A DNA stretch of 62,879 bases, counting the filler, from Stramenopiles sp. TOSAG23-3 (taxonomy: Eukaryota): NCBI GenBank assembly GCA_900128585.1. It is 5 parts of 5 records of this genome, joined end to end, with 100 filler letters (N's around TTAATTAATTAA, not from the genome) between each part and the next. Parts side by side here need not be neighbours in the genome. Positions count along the whole stretch, not along the records: positions 1 to 28,174 come from LT642251.1; 4 more parts are not named here. The stretch is one strand, 5' to 3'. This document shows positions 12,431-60,773 of the stretch, piece after piece; the stretch's first letter is position 1, and each line of letters starts with the position of its first letter. The position numbers and the translations under genes were made by a program. The notes beneath the pieces are model-generated. The model made no database searches, was not told where the DNA came from, and saw only the letters and a program-made list of their open reading frames with translations.

Positions 12431-12930
12431 GAAGGATCGATTTGCCCAATAAAAAATATTATTATTATAAAAAATAAAATTCTATTATAATATTGGTAGT
12501 AATACAGTATCTATTATTTTTTATGGGACAGACAGAAAGACAGACACAGACACAGCATGTTTTACCTTGTTGGTAAAAAATAAAAAAAAAAGAACAAATT
12601 CTTCTTCTTCTTTTTTCTTCATCATCAACAACCCCCGCCGCCCCCTATACTCCTCGTACCTTGGTACGCCAAAGTTTTTTTTTCATTTATTATTATTATA
12701 CCGGTATTTTGATTACGTATTTTTTATATTATTAATCTTTCTCTTGTCGTCGTAGAAGTTGTAAATGATATTAACTAAAAGACATTCCGATTGTAATCAC
12801 ACACTTCTTTACCAGTATTGGCAACGTTCTTAGTTTCTAGCCATAGTTTCTGACAGTGGTGTTTGGCCATAGAAGAAGCCGCTCTGCCTTAGCGGGTAGT
12901 CGTCATCGTAGTAGTAGTAGTAAAAATAGA

Positions 12931-14024
12931 ATGAGTGCCAACCCTGGTGTTGGTGGCAGTGTGGAGGAGGGTACTCGTTCGCCCCCCCCCCCGCATCGAA
13001 GCTGGCTAGTGCTCGTAATTCTTTTTTTACCTGGCTCTCAAATTACTTGAATGAATTTTCGTGTGGGATCTGTCACAAAAATCGTCCAGATGTGAAAAGG
13101 GAAGTCTCTAAAATCAGGGACGAAGCCTACCAAAACAGGGTAGTGATTTACACACAAGCGGGCTGCCCCTACTGCAAGAAAGGCGTTGCGTTTGTAAAGA
13201 AATGCGCAGGCGATGACACGACCATGGTCATCCGCGATGGCACTGTCATGAAAACGAGGCTAGCCCTGCAGGAAGCGACGAACCAGCCATCAGTTACGTT
13301 CCCTATCATTGTCATCGGCGGGGTGTACCACGGCGGCGCGGACGACGTCCTTGCCCTTGGAGAAGCAGAGGTTCGTAGCGTAATAGCGTCTGCAGCGGAC
13401 GGGGACGAGAGCAAGACGGTGACCCCACTCCTTCAATCGTCCCCAATGGCTTGGGCGGGGCACGTCCAGAAGAAACGGCGCCTTGACTTGCTTCGGCCGC
13501 CTACGGGCCCTAGGGGGGTGCTGTTCGGGTGGAAACAGGGCTTTCACATAAAAGTATGGGCAAACGTAATTCGGCTGCTCTCGTTTTTTCATGTCTTGCT
13601 TTTGGCGAGTTGCCTCGTGCTTCGGGCCTACCACATGCCAGGAGTGGCGACAGCCATCCTTTGGTTCCTTTTGGTGGACATTTCTTTCTTTGTTCTACAC
13701 GGCGCCCACCCGATCGCACCCCTGGCCACACTAACGACCGCTATCCTGTGGAAGCGCAAGGGCCCCGCCGTGGAAATTTTCCCGTACAAGGTTGTGTTCT
13801 TCGTGTATATCCTAGGCCTGGTGCGAGAACTAATGGTGGTCGACGGAACAAAGGAGTCCCAAAACGTGATTGTGCTTTCCATGCTGACAAACAGCTCTTT
13901 CCTTGCCGTTCTGCGCTTCTGACCGGGGGCGATAACTGCCCGCACTGCTCAAGCGTGCTTGTGGTTTTTCCACCACACCTGTATAAAAAGGAGGCCTCAG
14001 GAAAGCCTCGAATCCAAGGCGTAA
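12931..14024 (+). CDS. Predicted selenoprotein: glutaredoxin (CPYC) fused to a multi-pass membrane domain (MSP/DUF4395-like), Sec at TGA 13920-13922; frameshift in poly-C 12982-12992
   Basis: Grx motifs YTQAGCPYC, VTFPIIVIGG, HGGADD; several hydrophobic helices; frame stays open 33 codons past the TGA to TAA 14022-14024; SECIS downstream; ATG 12931 joins the frame if the 11-C run is 12 or 9 long. Confidence 0.8.
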
Positions 14025-14075
14025 GCACTGAACAGGGTAAATTATCACACTACACGTACGAGTGTAAATGTGGTC

Positions 14076-14140
14076 AGTCATTCGGAAAATGACGTTCTGA
14101 GAGGAAACCTAAGCGCTTCTCATCGAACCGAACGATGGCT
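14076..14140 (+). promoter_or_regulatory. Eukaryotic SECIS element in the 3' UTR
   Basis: Helix I AGTCATTCG/CGATGGCT; core ATGAC (14089) opposite CGAA (14129); helix II GTTC-TGAGAGG/CTTCTCA-tc-GAAC (11 bp); apical loop starting AAA (14105). Folded by hand. Confidence 0.82.
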
Positions 14141-14249
14141 ACTGCATTCTACCCTTGCTTGTAAAGAGATAATAGACGTGTGCGTAAGATAACATTAACG
14201 ATACCTACGTACTTCGTAATCTTTACGATAAGAATTTAAAGAAATTTTA

Positions 14250-14390
14250 ATTAAGTACATTACTTAAAATAGGTCAACAGCCAATTGTTTGTTTTTAAGA
14301 ATTAAAGAAATAACATATCATATATGTTATGATAAAACAAGAAAATTGGCTGTTATTTAAGTAACTAAGATCAATGTACTTCTTAGCGAC
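14250..14390. repeat. Two inverted copies of the dispersed intergenic repeat (core CAAGAAAATTGGCTGTTATTTAAGTAA)
   Basis: Forward copy at ~14338 and reverse-complement copy (aacagccaattgtttgtttttaagaatt) at ~14276; both match 29936-30280 and 47527. Confidence 0.75.
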
Positions 14391-14406
14391 TGCGCTACGC
14401 GCTCGT

Positions 14407-16605
14407 TCACTCCCCCCATGGGTTGGGGAACTCTTCCACAACCCTGCTAGTCTTCGGCACCATTGCCAACGCTTTGTGCAGGGCTTGGACTTCTTGAAGC
14501 AGTTTGAAGCCTGACAGATTGCTCATCGCAACGGCGATGGACTGCCGAGTCCCGGCAGAGAGCACGTCCGGGATTTTCCTTGAGGTGTAAACCGACGTCC
14601 CCAACGCTTGCAGAGCGTTACGCAGCGTCGACACGTTCACGCCGCTCCCGTCCTTGCCTTGGTCGTTCACTTCCAGCCCAATGAGCAGGGTGGAGAACAG
14701 TATAAGTTTTGAGAGAACGGCCGCCCTGCCGTCCTTCTCTGCGGACGCCTCTTTCGAGGCTTCGGTGGGGAAAGCGTACTCGACCATGGCAACGTTCAGC
14801 ATCAATTTTCCCACCGCCTCCCGCAGCTTCCGGTCGACCCGGCACGAAGGGAAGTTGGACGTGCAAAGGTTCAGAAGGAACAAATTGTTTTGCGCGCAGA
14901 GCGCCCACGCATTGCGGTACTTGAACAAATTCACTGCACAGCGCAGTGACAGCGTGCAGTTGCGGTCCGCTACCTTGTCTAACGCCGCGGAGGCAGAGCT
15001 GCCGGTTTCGGGCGCGGCTGCCTTGGCGGTAGCGTGCTCAAAGACGAGCTGGAGCAGCTTACCCCCCCGCCCAAAGGAGGGGCTTCCCAACAGCAACCGT
15101 TCGGCCGTGGGGTGCAAAAATACAATGCGCACCAGGTCAAGGGCCGGGTAGCACATGTGGGAGGGCCATTGCAAGAGCCTTTCAAGAACCGTCACGTGCT
15201 TGCGTGTCACCGAGTTAGAGTGCCACCGGTTCGACGCCTTCAAAATCCCTACTAAATCGTGCACGCTTTCCGTCTCCAACGGGAGCAGGGCGTGCGCCAG
15301 CCCGCCGTCCGATTTCAGCAGCAAGTTGTTCATCTCGAGGATCTTCGCCTCTATTTGCTTCAAGTTTTTCGTTGAAATAAACAGGGACGGGGTGGTTCCA
15401 ATGCAGGGCAGGACGCTTTCGTCGATGCCCAGGGTGCTCAGCCCGCGCCGGTTGCTCGTCGATTTGCCTGCTTTCCCGGTCTGCCTCCCACCGCTCCCCG
15501 CGCCCCCGTTGGCACGTGCCACGTGTTTGAGGATCGCGTTGCGCAGGGCATCGACGTTCGCCCCTAGAATGCTTTCGACGACACGGCCGCCTTTGATAAT
15601 GTGGAACGTCGGCAACGAGCGAATGCTGCTCACGCGGGCGATGTCCTTCGCCTCGTCGGTATTTACATTGCAAAAGTACGCCCGGCCTGCAAACGAAGAG
15701 GCCATCTGGGCGAAGATGGGCTTCATTCGGTTGCACGGGCCACACCAGTCTGCGTAGAAATCGATGACCACGGGCACCTTCCCATTCGCCGCTGTTTCCA
15801 GAAGCTGGTGGTACTCGTCCATTGTTCGGAGTGGGTGGACCCCCGTTGGGATGTTGCTAGTTGGAGAATTGCTCGTTGCAGGAGTTGACGACTTCGTCGG
15901 AGTGGCCGGGTCTCGTTTCCTGGAATCAGAGTTCACGGTCCCCCTCCACCGCTGTGCCGGACTTTCCTGCGCGGTCGAATCCGTCGGACGCGTTCGGAGA
16001 CTCCCAAAGGCGACGGGGGTTTTTGGATCCGGCCACAGCGGTATGCTGCCGCCAAGCGCCTCAACTTTCTTCGCCGGGGTGTTATGGGCCTCTGGGACGA
16101 CGTCTTCCGGTGTCTCCGACCCACCATTCACCACCGCGGCGTCGGGGGCGCTGCCCTCTTGCGGCGCAGGGGCACCCGTGCCCTTGAAAACGTCGTACGC
16201 TTCCTTACTGGCGTCAAAAACTGCCGTGTACGTTTCCATTTGGCACTTGTCCCCGCAGCAAAGGACGCAGGACGCCAGGAAGGCCCCCTCTTGTCCCTCC
16301 ACCGCCTTGACCTTTCGAAGGTTGGTCAAGTGCCATTTTTCCGAGTTGTTCCCGTTCAAAATTCTATGGTGCTTTACCACCGCGCAGAGCATCGCACGGT
16401 GTTCAGTGTCGACTTCGCATTCAATGAGCTCGTCCAACGCTTCGCCGTCCGCACTGCTCGTTGCAGCCGACGCCTGCGTTTCGACCAAACGGGACGTTGG
16501 TTCTTCAGCCTTTTTGTTCGAACCGTTCAGCAGTGAATTATACACAAAGTAAACGGAAACAAACAGAGCAATCACACTCCACGCAACTTGTGCATACCAC
16601 TCCAT
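14407..16605 (-). CDS. N-terminally membrane-anchored thioredoxin + PUL-like domain protein
   Basis: N-terminal hydrophobic helix; VIDFYADWCGPC thioredoxin site; C-terminal helical region with LLQWPSHMCYPALDLVRI resembling the PUL domain of Doa1/PLAA. Confidence 0.82.
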   Translation of the reverse strand: MEWYAQVAWSVIALFVSVYFVYNSLLNGSNKKAEEPTSRLVETQASAATSSADGEALDELIECEVDTEHRAMLCAVVKHHRILNGNNSEKWHLTNLRKVKAVEGQEGAFLASCVLCCGDKCQMETYTAVFDASKEAYDVFKGTGAPAPQEGSAPDAAVVNGGSETPEDVVPEAHNTPAKKVEALGGSIPLWPDPKTPVAFGSLRTRPTDSTAQESPAQRWRGTVNSDSRKRDPATPTKSSTPATSNSPTSNIPTGVHPLRTMDEYHQLLETAANGKVPVVIDFYADWCGPCNRMKPIFAQMASSFAGRAYFCNVNTDEAKDIARVSSIRSLPTFHIIKGGRVVESILGANVDALRNAILKHVARANGGAGSGGRQTGKAGKSTSNRRGLSTLGIDESVLPCIGTTPSLFISTKNLKQIEAKILEMNNLLLKSDGGLAHALLPLETESVHDLVGILKASNRWHSNSVTRKHVTVLERLLQWPSHMCYPALDLVRIVFLHPTAERLLLGSPSFGRGGKLLQLVFEHATAKAAAPETGSSASAALDKVADRNCTLSLRCAVNLFKYRNAWALCAQNNLFLLNLCTSNFPSCRVDRKLREAVGKLMLNVAMVEYAFPTEASKEASAEKDGRAAVLSKLILFSTLLIGLEVNDQGKDGSGVNVSTLRNALQALGTSVYTSRKIPDVLSAGTRQSIAVAMSNLSGFKLLQEVQALHKALAMVPKTSRVVEEFPNPWGE

Positions 16606-28174: not shown

Positions 28175-28274
28175 NNNNNNNNNNNNNNNNNNNNNNNNNN
28201 NNNNNNNNNNNNNNNNNNTTAATTAATTAANNNNNNNNNNNNNNNNNNNNNNNNNNNNNNNNNNNNNNNNNNNN
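28175..28274. other. Artificial contig linker N44-TTAATTAATTAA-N44
   Basis: 100-nt spacer with a six-frame stop 12-mer; identical spacers at 56260, 58468 and 60674. Confidence 0.95.
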
Positions 28275-56259: not shown

Positions 56260-56359
56260 NNNNNNNNNNNNNNNNNNNNNNNNNNNNNNNNNNNNNNNNN
56301 NNNTTAATTAATTAANNNNNNNNNNNNNNNNNNNNNNNNNNNNNNNNNNNNNNNNNNNN
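56260..56359. other. Artificial contig linker
   Basis: N44-TTAATTAATTAA-N44. Confidence 0.95.
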
Positions 56360-58467: not shown

Positions 58468-58567
58468 NNNNNNNNNNNNNNNNNNNNNNNNNNNNNNNNN
58501 NNNNNNNNNNNTTAATTAATTAANNNNNNNNNNNNNNNNNNNNNNNNNNNNNNNNNNNNNNNNNNNN
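58468..58567. other. Artificial contig linker
   Basis: N44-TTAATTAATTAA-N44. Confidence 0.95.
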
Positions 58568-60673: not shown

Positions 60674-60773
60674 NNNNNNNNNNNNNNNNNNNNNNNNNNN
60701 NNNNNNNNNNNNNNNNNTTAATTAATTAANNNNNNNNNNNNNNNNNNNNNNNNNNNNNNNNNNNNNNNNNNNN
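60674..60773. other. Artificial contig linker
   Basis: N44-TTAATTAATTAA-N44. Confidence 0.95.

What the first reader, a model, noticed from the sequence alone, without database searches (positions are those of the whole stretch)
12931..14140. Hidden selenoprotein: glutaredoxin fused to a membrane domain, with a UGA-Sec codon and its own SECIS
Seen: the ORF track stops at ...NSSFLAVLRF-TGA (13920), but the frame continues PGAITARTAQACLWFFHHTCIKRRPQESLESKA to TAA 14022. About 170 nt after the TGA lies a hand-foldable SECIS (AUGA/GA core, 11-bp helix II, AAA loop, helix I). Established: SECIS elements recode UGA to Sec in eukaryotes, and DUF4395-type membrane domains carry a conserved Cys after a similar 'L.A.F.F' helix end. 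Inference: a membrane redox relay combining an N-terminal CGIC, a Grx CPYC and a membrane-proximal Sec in one chain, which standard gene callers would truncate. It may be related to the protist membrane selenoprotein (MSP); whether this Grx fusion is already described needs a search.
Basis: partly seen in the sequence, partly recalled or inferred. Interest (0 to 1): 0.9.

Follow-up and report, generated by a model that had tools for sequence, protein, structure and literature searches.

The report
Truncated membrane glutaredoxin selenoprotein gene
This gene of a marine protist most likely encodes a membrane-anchored glutaredoxin whose "stop" codon TGA is read as selenocysteine, and the same hidden reading applies to a whole family of plankton proteins that public databases list as cut short.

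Summary
The ORF ends at TGA 13920-13922, the frame stays open to TAA 14022-14024, and a SECIS-like stem-loop (AUGA 14089, apical AAA 14105, GA 14130, 11-bp helix II) lies 65 nt after the TAA.

The main evidence is comparative:
- All 5 distant full-length homologs with DNA in hand (26-34% identity) carry TGA at the same column.
- After that TGA they continue in frame with a conserved peptide (U-PGS..GA..K..QY). Its codon-position pattern equals that of the upstream coding sequence.
- 91 of 106 database representatives with the membrane domain end exactly before this column. None has Cys there.
- SECIS-like elements lie 29-90 nt after the final stop in 5 of 6 loci.
- RNA-library contigs span the TGA, the TAA and the SECIS.

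The protein has a conserved N-terminal Cys, a class-I dithiol Grx (CPYC), four transmembrane helices resembling DUF4395, then Sec at the end of the last helix and a short tail.

Three points stay open. The window's own tail is poorly conserved. The Sec machinery could not be checked because no genome is held. Whether the family equals the published "MSP" or the algal "Sec-GRX" could not be tested.

Confidence that it is a selenoprotein gene: 0.85.

The parts
12931..12992 (+). Start codon ATG 12931 and the N-terminal coding stretch, up to the poly-C run 12982-12992. The run carries 2 extra C in the window and shifts the frame.
   Evidence: P0006 (329 aa, same species) starts MSANPGVGGSVEEGTRSPPPASKLASARNSFFTWLSNYLNEF. 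All 4 RNA-library runs lack 2 bases at 12982. The poly-C run was located.
13047..13919 (+). The ORF as gene callers see it (291 codons), ending ...NSSFLAVLRF.
   Evidence: Database proteins P0002 and P0005-P0012 end at the same residue.
13062..13064 (+). Conserved N-terminal Cys (residue 6 of the ORF, in the motif YLNE[FY]xC).
   Evidence: Cys in 35 of 41 aligned sequences. The second Cys of 'CGIC' is present in only 4 of 42.
13140..13325 (+). Glutaredoxin domain, with active site CPYC at 13164-13175.
   Evidence: Pfam PF00462: E 4.1e-5, 24.1 bits against a cut-off of 22.9. C40 is Cys in 59 of 63 and C43 in 61 of 63. The model matches human Grx2 (2ht9_A) at Z 13.5, rmsd 1.6 over 99 residues.
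13560..13919 (+). Membrane domain: helices at residues 172-194, 198-218, (225-233 short), 245-263 and 269-291. It resembles DUF4395.
   Evidence: AlphaFold2 model with pLDDT 87.3 and pTM 0.79. Hydropathy. Atlas. hhalign.
13920..13922 (+). In-frame TGA, read as selenocysteine (residue 292 of the ORF numbering).
   Evidence: TGA at the same alignment column in L001-L005 (5 of 5). P0022 has W there, meaning the caller read the TGA as a sense codon. No variant at this codon in the 4 RNA-library runs.
13923..14024 (+). Post-Sec tail of 33 codons (PGAITARTAQACLWFFHHTCIKRRPQESLESKA) and the true stop TAA 14022-14024.
   Evidence: PG, an aromatic residue near +15, a Cys near +20 and a basic end resemble the tails of the homologs. 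Only 1-3 of 16 residues are identical to them.
14067..14148 (+). SECIS-like element, form 1. AUGA 14089-14092, apical loop AAACCUAAGCG with AAA at 14105-14107, GA 14130-14131.
   Evidence: Own SECISearch-like scans. Fold. No SNP inside it in the 4 runs; SNPs flank it at 14053 and 14168.
12814..14241 (+). Extent covered by RNA-library contigs, taken as the putative transcript.
   Evidence: table 8: X8 record 25 covers 12838-14198. X3 record 17 covers 12914-14241. X19 records 9 and 10 cover 12814-13339 and 13318-14204. X17 records 1 and 5 cover 12815-13937 and 13939-14143.

Best explanation
The gene at 12931-14024 encodes a selenoprotein of about 363 residues, counted after removing the 2-base poly-C artefact. 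UGA 13920 is decoded as selenocysteine with the help of the SECIS element at about 14067-14148 in the 3' UTR. The real stop is TAA 14022.

The chain has these parts, in order:
- a short N-terminal segment with one conserved Cys;
- a class-I dithiol glutaredoxin domain (CPYC);
- a four-helix membrane domain of DUF4395-like fold;
- Sec directly at the end of the last helix (..LAVLRF-U-PG..);
- a short amphipathic, basic tail.

There are four transmembrane helices, and the basic residues sit before helix 1, between helices 2 and 3, and in the tail. So the Grx domain and the Sec should lie on the same, probably cytosolic, membrane face.

Proposed mechanism (inferred, not shown): the selenol at the membrane surface is the reactive centre. 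It attacks an oxidised or electrophilic membrane-borne or membrane-proximal substrate. The resulting selenenic acid or selenenylsulfide is resolved by a Cys of the same chain (the Grx CPYC or the N-terminal Cys). The fused Grx domain is then re-reduced by glutathione. In short, a glutathione-driven, self-recycling membrane oxidoreductase.

Shown in silico: the recoding signature, the domain make-up and the family-wide truncation in databases. Inferred: Sec insertion in vivo, the topology, the electron path and the substrate.
For: 1. TGA at one column. All 5 metagenomic loci whose match reaches the C-terminus (L001-L005; 26-34% identity; of 80 loci kept, the other 75 match the Grx part only) have TGA right after (F/L)RF. 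All continue in frame as PGS/PTS..GA..K..(Q/E)Y. With the window that makes 6 of 6. TGA ends only 6 of 21 other ORFs of the window.

2. Coding signature after the TGA, in the 5 loci (10 pairs). Differences at codon positions 1/2/3 are 0.42/0.24/0.69 in the 16 codons after the TGA. They are 0.39/0.27/0.62 in the 16 codons before it and 0.70/0.72/0.71 after the final stop. Ser is encoded by AGT, AGC and TCC.

3. Family-wide truncation. The exhaustive profile search found 90 clusters at E<=1e-30. Of the 150 best representatives, 106 carry the membrane-domain PYK motif. 91 of those end exactly at ..R(F/L). The other 15 break off or change frame earlier. 0 has Cys or any other residue at the column. 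P0022 shows W at the column followed by PGSLATGAVLKPIQY. The Triparma laevis model P0034 splices around it.

4. SECIS. The window element passes strict rules (4 hits in 125.8 kb). SECIS-like elements with AAUGA cores lie 65, 87, 76, 90 and 29 nt after the final stop in the window, L001, L002, L003 and L004. The background of the looser scan is 0.23 cores per kb per strand. Folds of L001, L002 and L003 have z -3.0, -3.6 and -3.4.

5. RNA-library contigs of 4 runs bridge the TGA, the TAA and the SECIS. Two of the libraries are poly-A selected.

6. Domains. Grx from Pfam and fold. CxxC conserved. The model has pLDDT 87.3. In one search the Sec column falls on the first Cys of the DUF4395 motif FG[IF]C.GC, which was seen in 33 of 33 bacterial sequences extracted.
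Against: - The window's own tail shares only 1-3 of 16 residues with the five homologs. An open frame of 33 codons is expected by chance about one time in five (own arithmetic). For this particular species, translation beyond the TGA therefore rests on the retained TGA, the PG, the SECIS and analogy.
- Rfam covariance models for SECIS hit nothing in the window or in L001-L005. The window element's unconstrained fold is only z -1.65, and L004's is z -0.62. No SECIS candidate was found in L005.
- No Cys-form homolog was seen inside the family. The classic Sec/Cys pairing test is therefore met only at the distant, statistically weak DUF4395 level (hhalign probability 9%).
- The Sec machinery could not be looked for, because no genome is held. 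The window holds only a tRNA-Glu.
- The RNA-library contigs cannot prove transcription or the strand (notes).
- No experiment supports the mechanism.
Confidence: 0.85

Rival explanations
1. In the window's lineage the TGA is now a plain stop. The ancestor was a selenoprotein, but this species makes the truncated protein ending in ..LRF, and the tail and stem-loop are decaying relics.
For: The tail shares only 1-3 of 16 residues with the five homologs. Rfam finds no SECIS. The fold z-score is only -1.65. The Sec machinery is unchecked. One of the two population SNPs in the tail is non-synonymous (13938 G>A).
Against: The TGA itself is kept rather than TAA or TAG, and shows no variant in 4 runs. 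PG follows it as in the homologs. The frame is still open for 33 codons. The stem-loop still meets strict SECIS rules, which only 4 places in 125.8 kb meet. It carries no SNP, while its flanks do. RNA-library contigs run through it.
Confidence: 0.1
2. UGA is read through as a standard amino acid (Trp, Cys or Arg), either by stop-codon readthrough or by a changed genetic code, and not as selenocysteine.
For: One database protein (P0022) was translated with W at the column. No direct evidence for selenium exists.
Against: TGA ends 6 of 21 other ORFs in the window, and long ORFs contain no in-frame TGA. L003-L005 use TGA as their final stop. SECIS-like elements follow the gene in 5 of 6 loci. The named relatives (Triparma, a pelagophyte, a diatom) belong to groups reported to be rich in selenoproteins (PMC7539508, section 5 read).
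Confidence: 0.03
3. The conserved stretch after the TGA is not part of this protein. It would be a separate small ORF or a conserved RNA element of the 3' UTR.
For: None found. It is only formally possible, because no protein data exist.
Against: The stretch is in frame with the upstream ORF in 6 of 6 loci. It has no start codon of its own at its beginning (it begins CCN GGN). It shows third-position variation and a switch between serine codon classes, which is typical of translated sequence.
Confidence: 0.02

Closest known systems
MSP, the 'membrane selenoprotein' of Ostreococcus, Chlamydomonas, Volvox and Dictyostelium (Lobanov et al. 2007, PMC2375036; passages and sections 8 and 34 read)
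   Same: A predicted membrane selenoprotein of protists. It is reported almost only in the Sec form in algae (PMC7539508, section 5 read), as is the case here.
   Different: The Dictyostelium MSP is reported with two Sec residues; only one Sec column is seen here. MSP was reported from green algae and an amoeba and is blank for Thalassiosira in that paper's Table 2. The named members found here are stramenopiles. The passages read mention no Grx domain for MSP. No MSP sequence could be obtained, so homology is untested.
DUF4395 (Pfam PF14340), uncharacterised membrane proteins mostly of bacteria
   Same: A four-helix membrane domain of similar size. Nearest Atlas clusters by features (0.88, 196 of 256 shared) and by structure (TM 0.78 over 141 residues). 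hhalign aligns 98 columns at E 0.0036 and puts Sec on the first Cys of the conserved C-terminal FG[IF]C.GC motif.
   Different: No Pfam HMM hit even at E<=10. hhalign probability is only 9%. The motif here is F-R-F-U-P-G-S: Sec replaces the first Cys and Ser replaces the second. The Grx fusion and the post-Sec tail were not seen in the bacterial examples.
Class-I dithiol glutaredoxins (human Grx2 2ht9, Chlamydomonas Grx2 7ncw)
   Same: The fold matches (Z 13.5, rmsd 1.6-2.0 over 99-101 residues). The CPYC / CG[FY]C active site, the TFP motif and the GG.DD motif are conserved.
   Different: Here the Grx is the N-terminal module of a membrane protein, and the selenium is outside the Grx active site.
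'Sec-containing GRX' of SAR algae and haptophytes (Jiang et al. 2020, PMC7539508; sections 5, 10 and 11 read)
   Same: The taxonomic range is the same as the named members found here (SAR). A protein with a Grx domain and a Sec could have been filed under GRX.
   Different: That paper describes Cys-form paralogs (a Fragilariopsis pair), and none was seen here. It gives no mention of a membrane domain or a C-terminal Sec in the text read. Its supplements and its database could not be seen.
Thioredoxin-glutathione reductase (TGR/TXNRD3) and the tail-anchored selenoproteins SELENOK/SELENOS (recalled knowledge; only the Grx domain of TXNRD3, 3h8q, appears at Z 11.8)
   Same: TGR: a Grx domain and a Sec near the C-terminus in one chain, exchanging electrons. 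SELENOK/S: membrane proteins with Sec in a short, disordered, cytosolic C-terminal tail.
   Different: No flavoprotein module is present. This is a multi-pass, not a single-pass, membrane domain. No sequence relation was found.

Membership tests
Eukaryotic selenoprotein gene (UGA-Sec plus SECIS) | In-frame UGA conserved at one column among homologs | tested here: met
   6 of 6 loci with DNA (the window and L001-L005) have TGA at the column. P0022 has W there.
Eukaryotic selenoprotein gene (UGA-Sec plus SECIS) | Protein-coding conservation continues after the UGA | tested here: met
   Met for the five homologs: codon-position differences are 0.42/0.24/0.69 after the TGA, 0.39/0.27/0.62 before it, and 0.70/0.72/0.71 after the final stop. 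Weak for the window itself, at 1-3 of 16 identities.
Eukaryotic selenoprotein gene (UGA-Sec plus SECIS) | SECIS element in the 3' UTR (AUGA..AA..GA kink-turn stem-loop) | tested here: met
   Own scans find one in the window, L001, L002, L003 and L004, 29-90 nt after the final stop, and none in L005. Rfam models find none. SECISearch3 was not available.
Eukaryotic selenoprotein gene (UGA-Sec plus SECIS) | Cys-containing homologs at the Sec column | tested here: inconclusive
   0 of 106 membrane-domain representatives has Cys there. The Sec column aligns to a conserved Cys only in the distant DUF4395 comparison (E 0.0036, probability 9%).
Eukaryotic selenoprotein gene (UGA-Sec plus SECIS) | Sec machinery in the genome (tRNA-Sec, SPS2, SecS, PSTK, eEFSec, SBP2) | not testable with these tools
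   No whole genome is held for the window. The window holds only a tRNA-Glu.
Eukaryotic selenoprotein gene (UGA-Sec plus SECIS) | Selenium actually incorporated | not testable with these tools
   This needs 75Se labelling or mass spectrometry.
Glutaredoxin (PF00462), class-I dithiol | Family HMM above the curated cut-off | tested here: met
   24.1 bits against a cut-off of 22.9, E 4.1e-5. 6 of 8 members of A3 match, best E 9.3e-10.
Glutaredoxin (PF00462), class-I dithiol | CxxC active site and the TFP / GG.DD glutathione-site motifs | tested here: met
   C40 is Cys in 59 of 63 and C43 in 61 of 63. T84, F85, P86, G96, G97, D99 and D100 are invariant in A1.
Glutaredoxin (PF00462), class-I dithiol | Thioredoxin/Grx fold | tested here: met
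   Z 13.5, rmsd 1.6, 99 residues aligned to 2ht9_A, using a model of pLDDT 87.3.
DUF4395 (PF14340) | Match to the family HMM | tested here: not met
   No hit at E<=1 or at E<=10 for the 8 members of A3.
DUF4395 (PF14340) | Profile-profile and structural likeness | tested here: inconclusive
   hhalign gives probability 1.2% with A3 and probability 9.2%, E 0.0036 over 98 columns with A6. Atlas features 0.88 and structure TM 0.78.
DUF4395 (PF14340) | C-terminal FG[IF]C.GC motif | tested here: inconclusive
   The motif is present in 33 of 33 bacterial sequences extracted. Here the sequence is F-R-F-U-P-G-S: Sec stands for the first Cys and Ser for the second.
MSP (membrane selenoprotein) | Sequence homology to the published MSP proteins | not testable with these tools
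   No MSP sequence could be fetched. No hit or 76 bears that name. The supplement holding the alignment (Additional data file 2 of PMC2375036) is closed.
MSP (membrane selenoprotein) | Two Sec residues (reported for Dictyostelium) | tested here: inconclusive
   Only one conserved TGA column is seen in the 6 loci. The number of Sec residues in the algal MSPs is not stated in the text read.

The most novel reading that the evidence does not exclude
This is a selenoprotein family not yet described as such. It is a Sec-only, Grx-fused, DUF4395-like membrane oxidoreductase found in many marine plankton sequence sets (RNA and DNA libraries). Every public protein record seen here is truncated or mis-spliced at the Sec codon. 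Its Sec marks the first Cys of the DUF4395 C-x-G-C motif as a redox-active centre, which would give that large uncharacterised bacterial family its first functional handle.
Probability: 0.4. Interest if true: 0.7.

Novelty: new member of a known kind. Interest (0 to 1): 0.6.

Why it matters
Three reasons, if the reading is true.

1. Annotation. At least 91 cluster representatives, including NCBI models from Triparma and a pelagophyte, are annotated as complete 'glutaredoxin' or 'hypothetical' proteins. They would in fact lack their catalytic residue and their tail.

2. Ecology. The window's stretch occurs in 20 public marine runs from 13 studies, 13 of them on record as RNA libraries and two possibly the source sample. 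This would add a selenium-dependent membrane enzyme to the selenium demand of marine plankton.

3. Biochemistry. Sec sits where DUF4395 proteins carry a conserved Cys, and a glutaredoxin is fused in the same chain. Together these make a testable redox hypothesis for a domain of unknown function.

If the family turns out to be the published MSP or 'Sec-GRX', the gain shrinks to a corrected annotation and a domain assignment.

Tried and rejected
- Rfam scans at E<=10 found no SECIS family in window 12500-14500 or in L001-L005.
- Pfam and NCBIfam scans of the family gave only Grx/Trx-type hits and nothing for the membrane domain.
- Solved structures: the membrane domain matches only generic four-helix bundles (Z<=10.6, below the level the tool calls meaningful for helical bundles). 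Foldseek against PDB gave no match at E<=0.001.
- Atlas search among unnamed clusters: no usable hit.
- No whole genome is held for the window, so the Sec machinery could not be searched.
So the DNA of the 44% relative (P0003/P0013) and of the other database proteins could not be read.
- The search for related loci in genome contigs: A4 was not conserved enough. A2 gave 23 pattern matches but no relative.
- Names: two cluster look-ups of 20 representatives gave names for only two taxa, and none said 'membrane selenoprotein'. The third protein search added no names.
- Literature: searches for 'membrane selenoprotein', MSP with SECIS, MSP with Dictyostelium and Ostreococcus, DUF4395, novel selenoproteins in diatoms and haptophytes, Tara Oceans selenoproteomes, and Aureococcus with MSP found no description of a Grx-membrane protein with a C-terminal Sec. 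The Aureococcus selenoproteome paper is not held.
- L005: no SECIS candidate under either scan. L004's far hit, 1561 nt downstream, was judged to be chance.
- The three other strict SECIS-like hits of the window (31015-, 25018-, 42139-) lie in or antisense to ORFs, and two of them have GUGA cores. They were judged to be chance.
- In one search no RNA-library contig covers 12600-12800, and cover is thin at about 14208-14274.
Full report
OBSERVATION

The ORF 13047..13922 ends ...NSSFLAVLRF-TGA. The same frame runs on for 33 codons (PGAITARTAQACLWFFHHTCIKRRPQESLESKA) to TAA 14022-14024.

The poly-C run 12982-12992 has two bases more than the contigs of all four RNA-library runs laid on it. The database protein P0006 of the same species reads MSANPGVGG...NYLNEFSCGICHK straight through it. 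I take the frameshift to be an assembly artefact or a strain difference.

THE FAMILY AND ITS TGA

A first protein search gave three clusters that all end at ..LAV(L/T)RF. A scan of metagenome contigs with their alignment kept 80 loci. Five of these (L001-L005, 26-34% identity) match to the last residue, and the other 75 match the glutaredoxin part only.

- In all five, the codon after (F/L)RF is TGA, and the frame continues: PGSLITAALLKPVQY, PTSLATGALLKPIQY, PGSAAAGAVVKAVEY, PGSLSAGAIVKVVQY, PGSLTTGFFVKGIQY.
- The final stops are TAA in two of the loci and TGA in three, 25 to 65 codons further on.
- In the window, TGA ends only 6 of 21 other ORFs. Six of six TGA at one column is therefore not a matter of codon usage, and UGA is not a general sense codon here.

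IS THE STRETCH AFTER THE TGA TRANSLATED?

I compared the five loci pairwise (10 pairs) by codon position.

| Region | Position 1 | Position 2 | Position 3 |
|---|---|---|---|
| 16 codons before the TGA | 0.39 | 0.27 | 0.62 |
| 16 codons after the TGA | 0.42 | 0.24 | 0.69 |
| 48 nt after the final stop | 0.70 | 0.72 | 0.71 |

The conserved Ser after the TGA is written AGT, AGC and TCC. Mean amino-acid identity is 0.55 after the TGA and 0.60 before it. This is the signature of translated sequence.

The window's own tail is the weak point. It keeps the PG, an aromatic residue near +15, a Cys near +20 and a basic end, but only 1-3 of 16 residues are identical to the five homologs.

HOW THE DATABASES SEE THE FAMILY

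An exhaustive profile search of 1.84 billion representatives found 90 clusters at E<=1e-30.

- Of the 150 best representatives, 106 carry the membrane-domain PYK motif.
- 91 of these end exactly at ..R(F/L), just before the TGA column.
- The other 15 break off or change frame earlier.
- None has Cys or any other residue at the column.
- One cluster member (P0022) was translated with W at the column and then reads PGSLATGAVLKPIQYGIRLLCC.
- The NCBI model of Triparma laevis (P0034) jumps from ..IVNSG to TGAIVKIVEYSRTICCTKKK, which splices the TGA out.

Named members are Triparma verrucosa and T. laevis, Pelagophyceae sp. CCMP2097 and the diatom Proboscia alata. All are called hypothetical or glutaredoxin-type proteins.

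SECIS

Rfam's models find nothing, so I wrote two SECISearch-like scans.

Strict scan. The rules were: A/G-UGA; 10-13 nt to an unpaired AA; at least 8 pairs in helix II starting at the core; GA on the 3' side; helix I; and energy limits of -12.6 and -3.7 kcal/mol.
- The window has one hit in the 3' region: AUGA 14089, AAA 14105, GA 14130, 11 pairs in helix II, -21.8 kcal/mol.
- The whole window has four hits on both strands. The other three lie in or antisense to ORFs.

Looser scan. This one allows long apical parts and has a background of 0.23 cores per kb per strand. Together with the strict scan it gives SECIS-like elements with an AAUGA core in five loci.

| Locus | Distance of core after the final stop (nt) |
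|---|---|
| Window | 65 |
| L001 | 87 |
| L002 | 76 |
| L003 | 90 |
| L004 | 29 |

- L001 and L002 share the 3' strand GUCGAGAG(C/A)GCUGA.
- L003 is a form-2 element with a long apical mini-stem.
- The free folds of L001, L002 and L003 put the AUGA and the UGA/GA in the internal loop, with z -3.0, -3.6 and -3.4.
- L004 is weaker (z -0.62), and L005 has no candidate. Both of these loci have introns.

EXPRESSION

The stretch occurs in 20 public runs from 13 studies. Thirteen are on record as RNA libraries and two may be the source of this DNA; nearly all are labelled marine or seawater metagenomes. Four RNA-library runs were laid, two of them poly-A selected.

- Single contigs run from 12838 to 14198, from 12914 to 14241 and from 13318 to 14204. 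They cross the TGA, the TAA and the whole SECIS.
- That three runs of three studies stop at about 14200-14240 is only a weak hint of the 3' end.
- There is no variant at the TGA.
- Of six SNPs in the reading frame, five are at third positions (13511, 13685, 13883, 13886, 13946) and one is at a first position (13938, Ala to Thr).
- No SNP lies in the SECIS, while 14053 and 14168 flank it.
- Contigs cannot prove transcription or the strand.

ARCHITECTURE

Glutaredoxin. Pfam sees only Glutaredoxin. The AlphaFold2 model built on 65 sequences is confident (pLDDT 87.3, pTM 0.79). Residues 11-118 match class-I Grx structures (2ht9_A: Z 13.5, rmsd 1.6, 99 residues).

Conserved cysteines:
- C40 and C43 of CPYC are Cys in 59 of 63 and 61 of 63.
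- The first Cys of 'CGIC' is Cys in 35 of 41.
- The second Cys of 'CGIC' is Cys in only 4 of 42, so CGIC is not a conserved CxxC.

Membrane part. It has helices at 172-194, 198-218, 245-263 and 269-291, with a short helix at 225-233. The low-confidence tail helix at 296-313 follows the Sec.

Topology (inference). There are four membrane helices, and the basic residues lie before helix 1 (KKRR), between helices 2 and 3 (KRK) and in the tail (KRR). This suggests that the N-terminus, the Grx domain and the Sec all lie on the cytosolic side.

DUF4395

- The ESM Atlas puts the membrane part next to DUF4395 clusters, both by features (0.88, 196 of 256 shared) and by structure (TM 0.78 over 141 residues).
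- Pfam's own HMM does not hit.
- I collected bacterial DUF4395 genes with the genome search. All 33 sequences extracted carry the motif ..LLFFE.xFG[IF]C.GC...
- hhalign of the 8-sequence family alignment against 15 of them gave probability 1.2%.
- With the 65-sequence alignment it gave E 0.0036 and probability 9.2% over 98 columns. The family's LAVfRF-U-pG was laid on EavFGiC-xGC, so the Sec falls on the first Cys of the motif.

This is suggestive but not proven. I rate membership as inconclusive.

MECHANISM (INFERRED)

A selenol at the membrane face would be the reactive centre. A cysteine of the same chain would resolve the oxidised selenium. The candidates are the Grx CPYC, the conserved N-terminal Cys or a tail Cys. 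The Grx domain would then be recycled by glutathione. The substrate is unknown. Lipid hydroperoxides or other membrane-borne oxidants and electrophiles are the obvious candidates.

Thioredoxin-glutathione reductase, which also couples a Grx domain with a Sec near the C-terminus, is a functional analogy. I recall this from knowledge; it was not tested here.

WHAT IS KNOWN, AND NOVELTY

MSP. Lobanov et al. 2007 (PMC2375036; passages and sections 8 and 34 read) named a predicted 'membrane selenoprotein' MSP. It occurs in Ostreococcus, Chlamydomonas, Volvox and Dictyostelium, with two Sec residues in Dictyostelium. It is not listed for Thalassiosira.

Algal selenoproteomes. Jiang et al. 2020 (PMC7539508; sections 5, 10 and 11 read) say that MSP occurs almost only in the Sec form. 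They also say that 'Sec-containing GRX' occurs only in SAR algae and haptophytes, with Cys-form paralogs in Fragilariopsis.

Either label might cover this family. I could not test it, for three reasons: no MSP sequence could be fetched, no hit bears that name, and the supplements and the authors' database were out of reach.

Eight full-text searches found no description of a Grx-membrane protein with a C-terminal Sec. I therefore file it as a new member of a known kind (eukaryotic selenoproteins). I put the chance at about 0.4 that the family is undescribed, and otherwise expect a catalogued family whose architecture and database truncation had not been spelled out.

LIMITS

- No genome was available for the Sec machinery.
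- No DNA was available for the closest relative.
- The SECIS calls rest on my own scripts.
- The window's tail is divergent.

Noticed in passing
window 12982-12992: A poly-C run of 11 carries 2 bases more than the RNA-library contigs of all 4 runs laid. This breaks the frame between ATG 12931 and the ORF at 13047. It is probably a homopolymer assembly error or a strain difference.
   Followed up: yes
window 14258-14368: A long AT-rich inverted repeat (AACAGCCAATTG...CAATTGGCTGTT) lies between the two convergent genes. A piece of about 35 nt (14333-14368) occurs in many otherwise unrelated RNA-library contigs at high depth, with loose ends on both sides. It may be a dispersed short repeat or a common 3'-end element.
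   Followed up: no
window 14407-16605 (-): The convergent neighbour encodes a 732-aa protein with a thioredoxin domain (WCGPC) and a PUL domain. Its stop is only 383 nt from the TAA of the selenoprotein gene, so the two 3' UTRs share a short spacer.
   Followed up: partly
window 30797-31669 (-): An ORF with two GST_N/Grx-like repeats. A SECIS-like hit of my strict scan (core at 31015, GUGA) lies inside its coding region and was judged to be chance. No in-frame TGA was seen in the ORF.
   Followed up: partly
window 28175-28274, 56260-56359, 58468-58567, 60674-60773, 31837-31983 and others: Runs of N, several of them as pairs of 44 N separated by 12 bases. These are masked or withheld stretches, or assembly gaps.
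   Followed up: no
P0034 (Triparma laevis f. longispina, NCBI model): The gene model jumps from ..FIVNSG to TGAIVKIVEYSRTICCTKKK. This removes the ..FRL-TGA-PGS segment as if it were an intron, apparently to avoid the in-frame TGA.
   Followed up: partly
L003 4272-4395: The SECIS candidate of this homolog is of form 2, with a long apical mini-stem (MFE -42.2 kcal/mol, z -3.4). The window, L001 and L002 have form-1-like elements.
   Followed up: partly
The genome search: G439:C1:1183407-1183802, G501:C9:296432-296758, G430:C1:175086-175436: Some bacterial DUF4395 matches contain in-frame TGA codons (2, 4 and 1 respectively; two of them also have other stops). They could be pseudogenes. In the case with only TGA, a bacterial Sec form is possible.
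   Followed up: no
window, whole: Genes look intron-free and alternate between strands. Coding GC is about 55-62% and intergenic GC about 20-30%, with long purine or pyrimidine tracts. The stretch occurs in public marine runs from 13 studies. The organism was not identified.
   Followed up: partly
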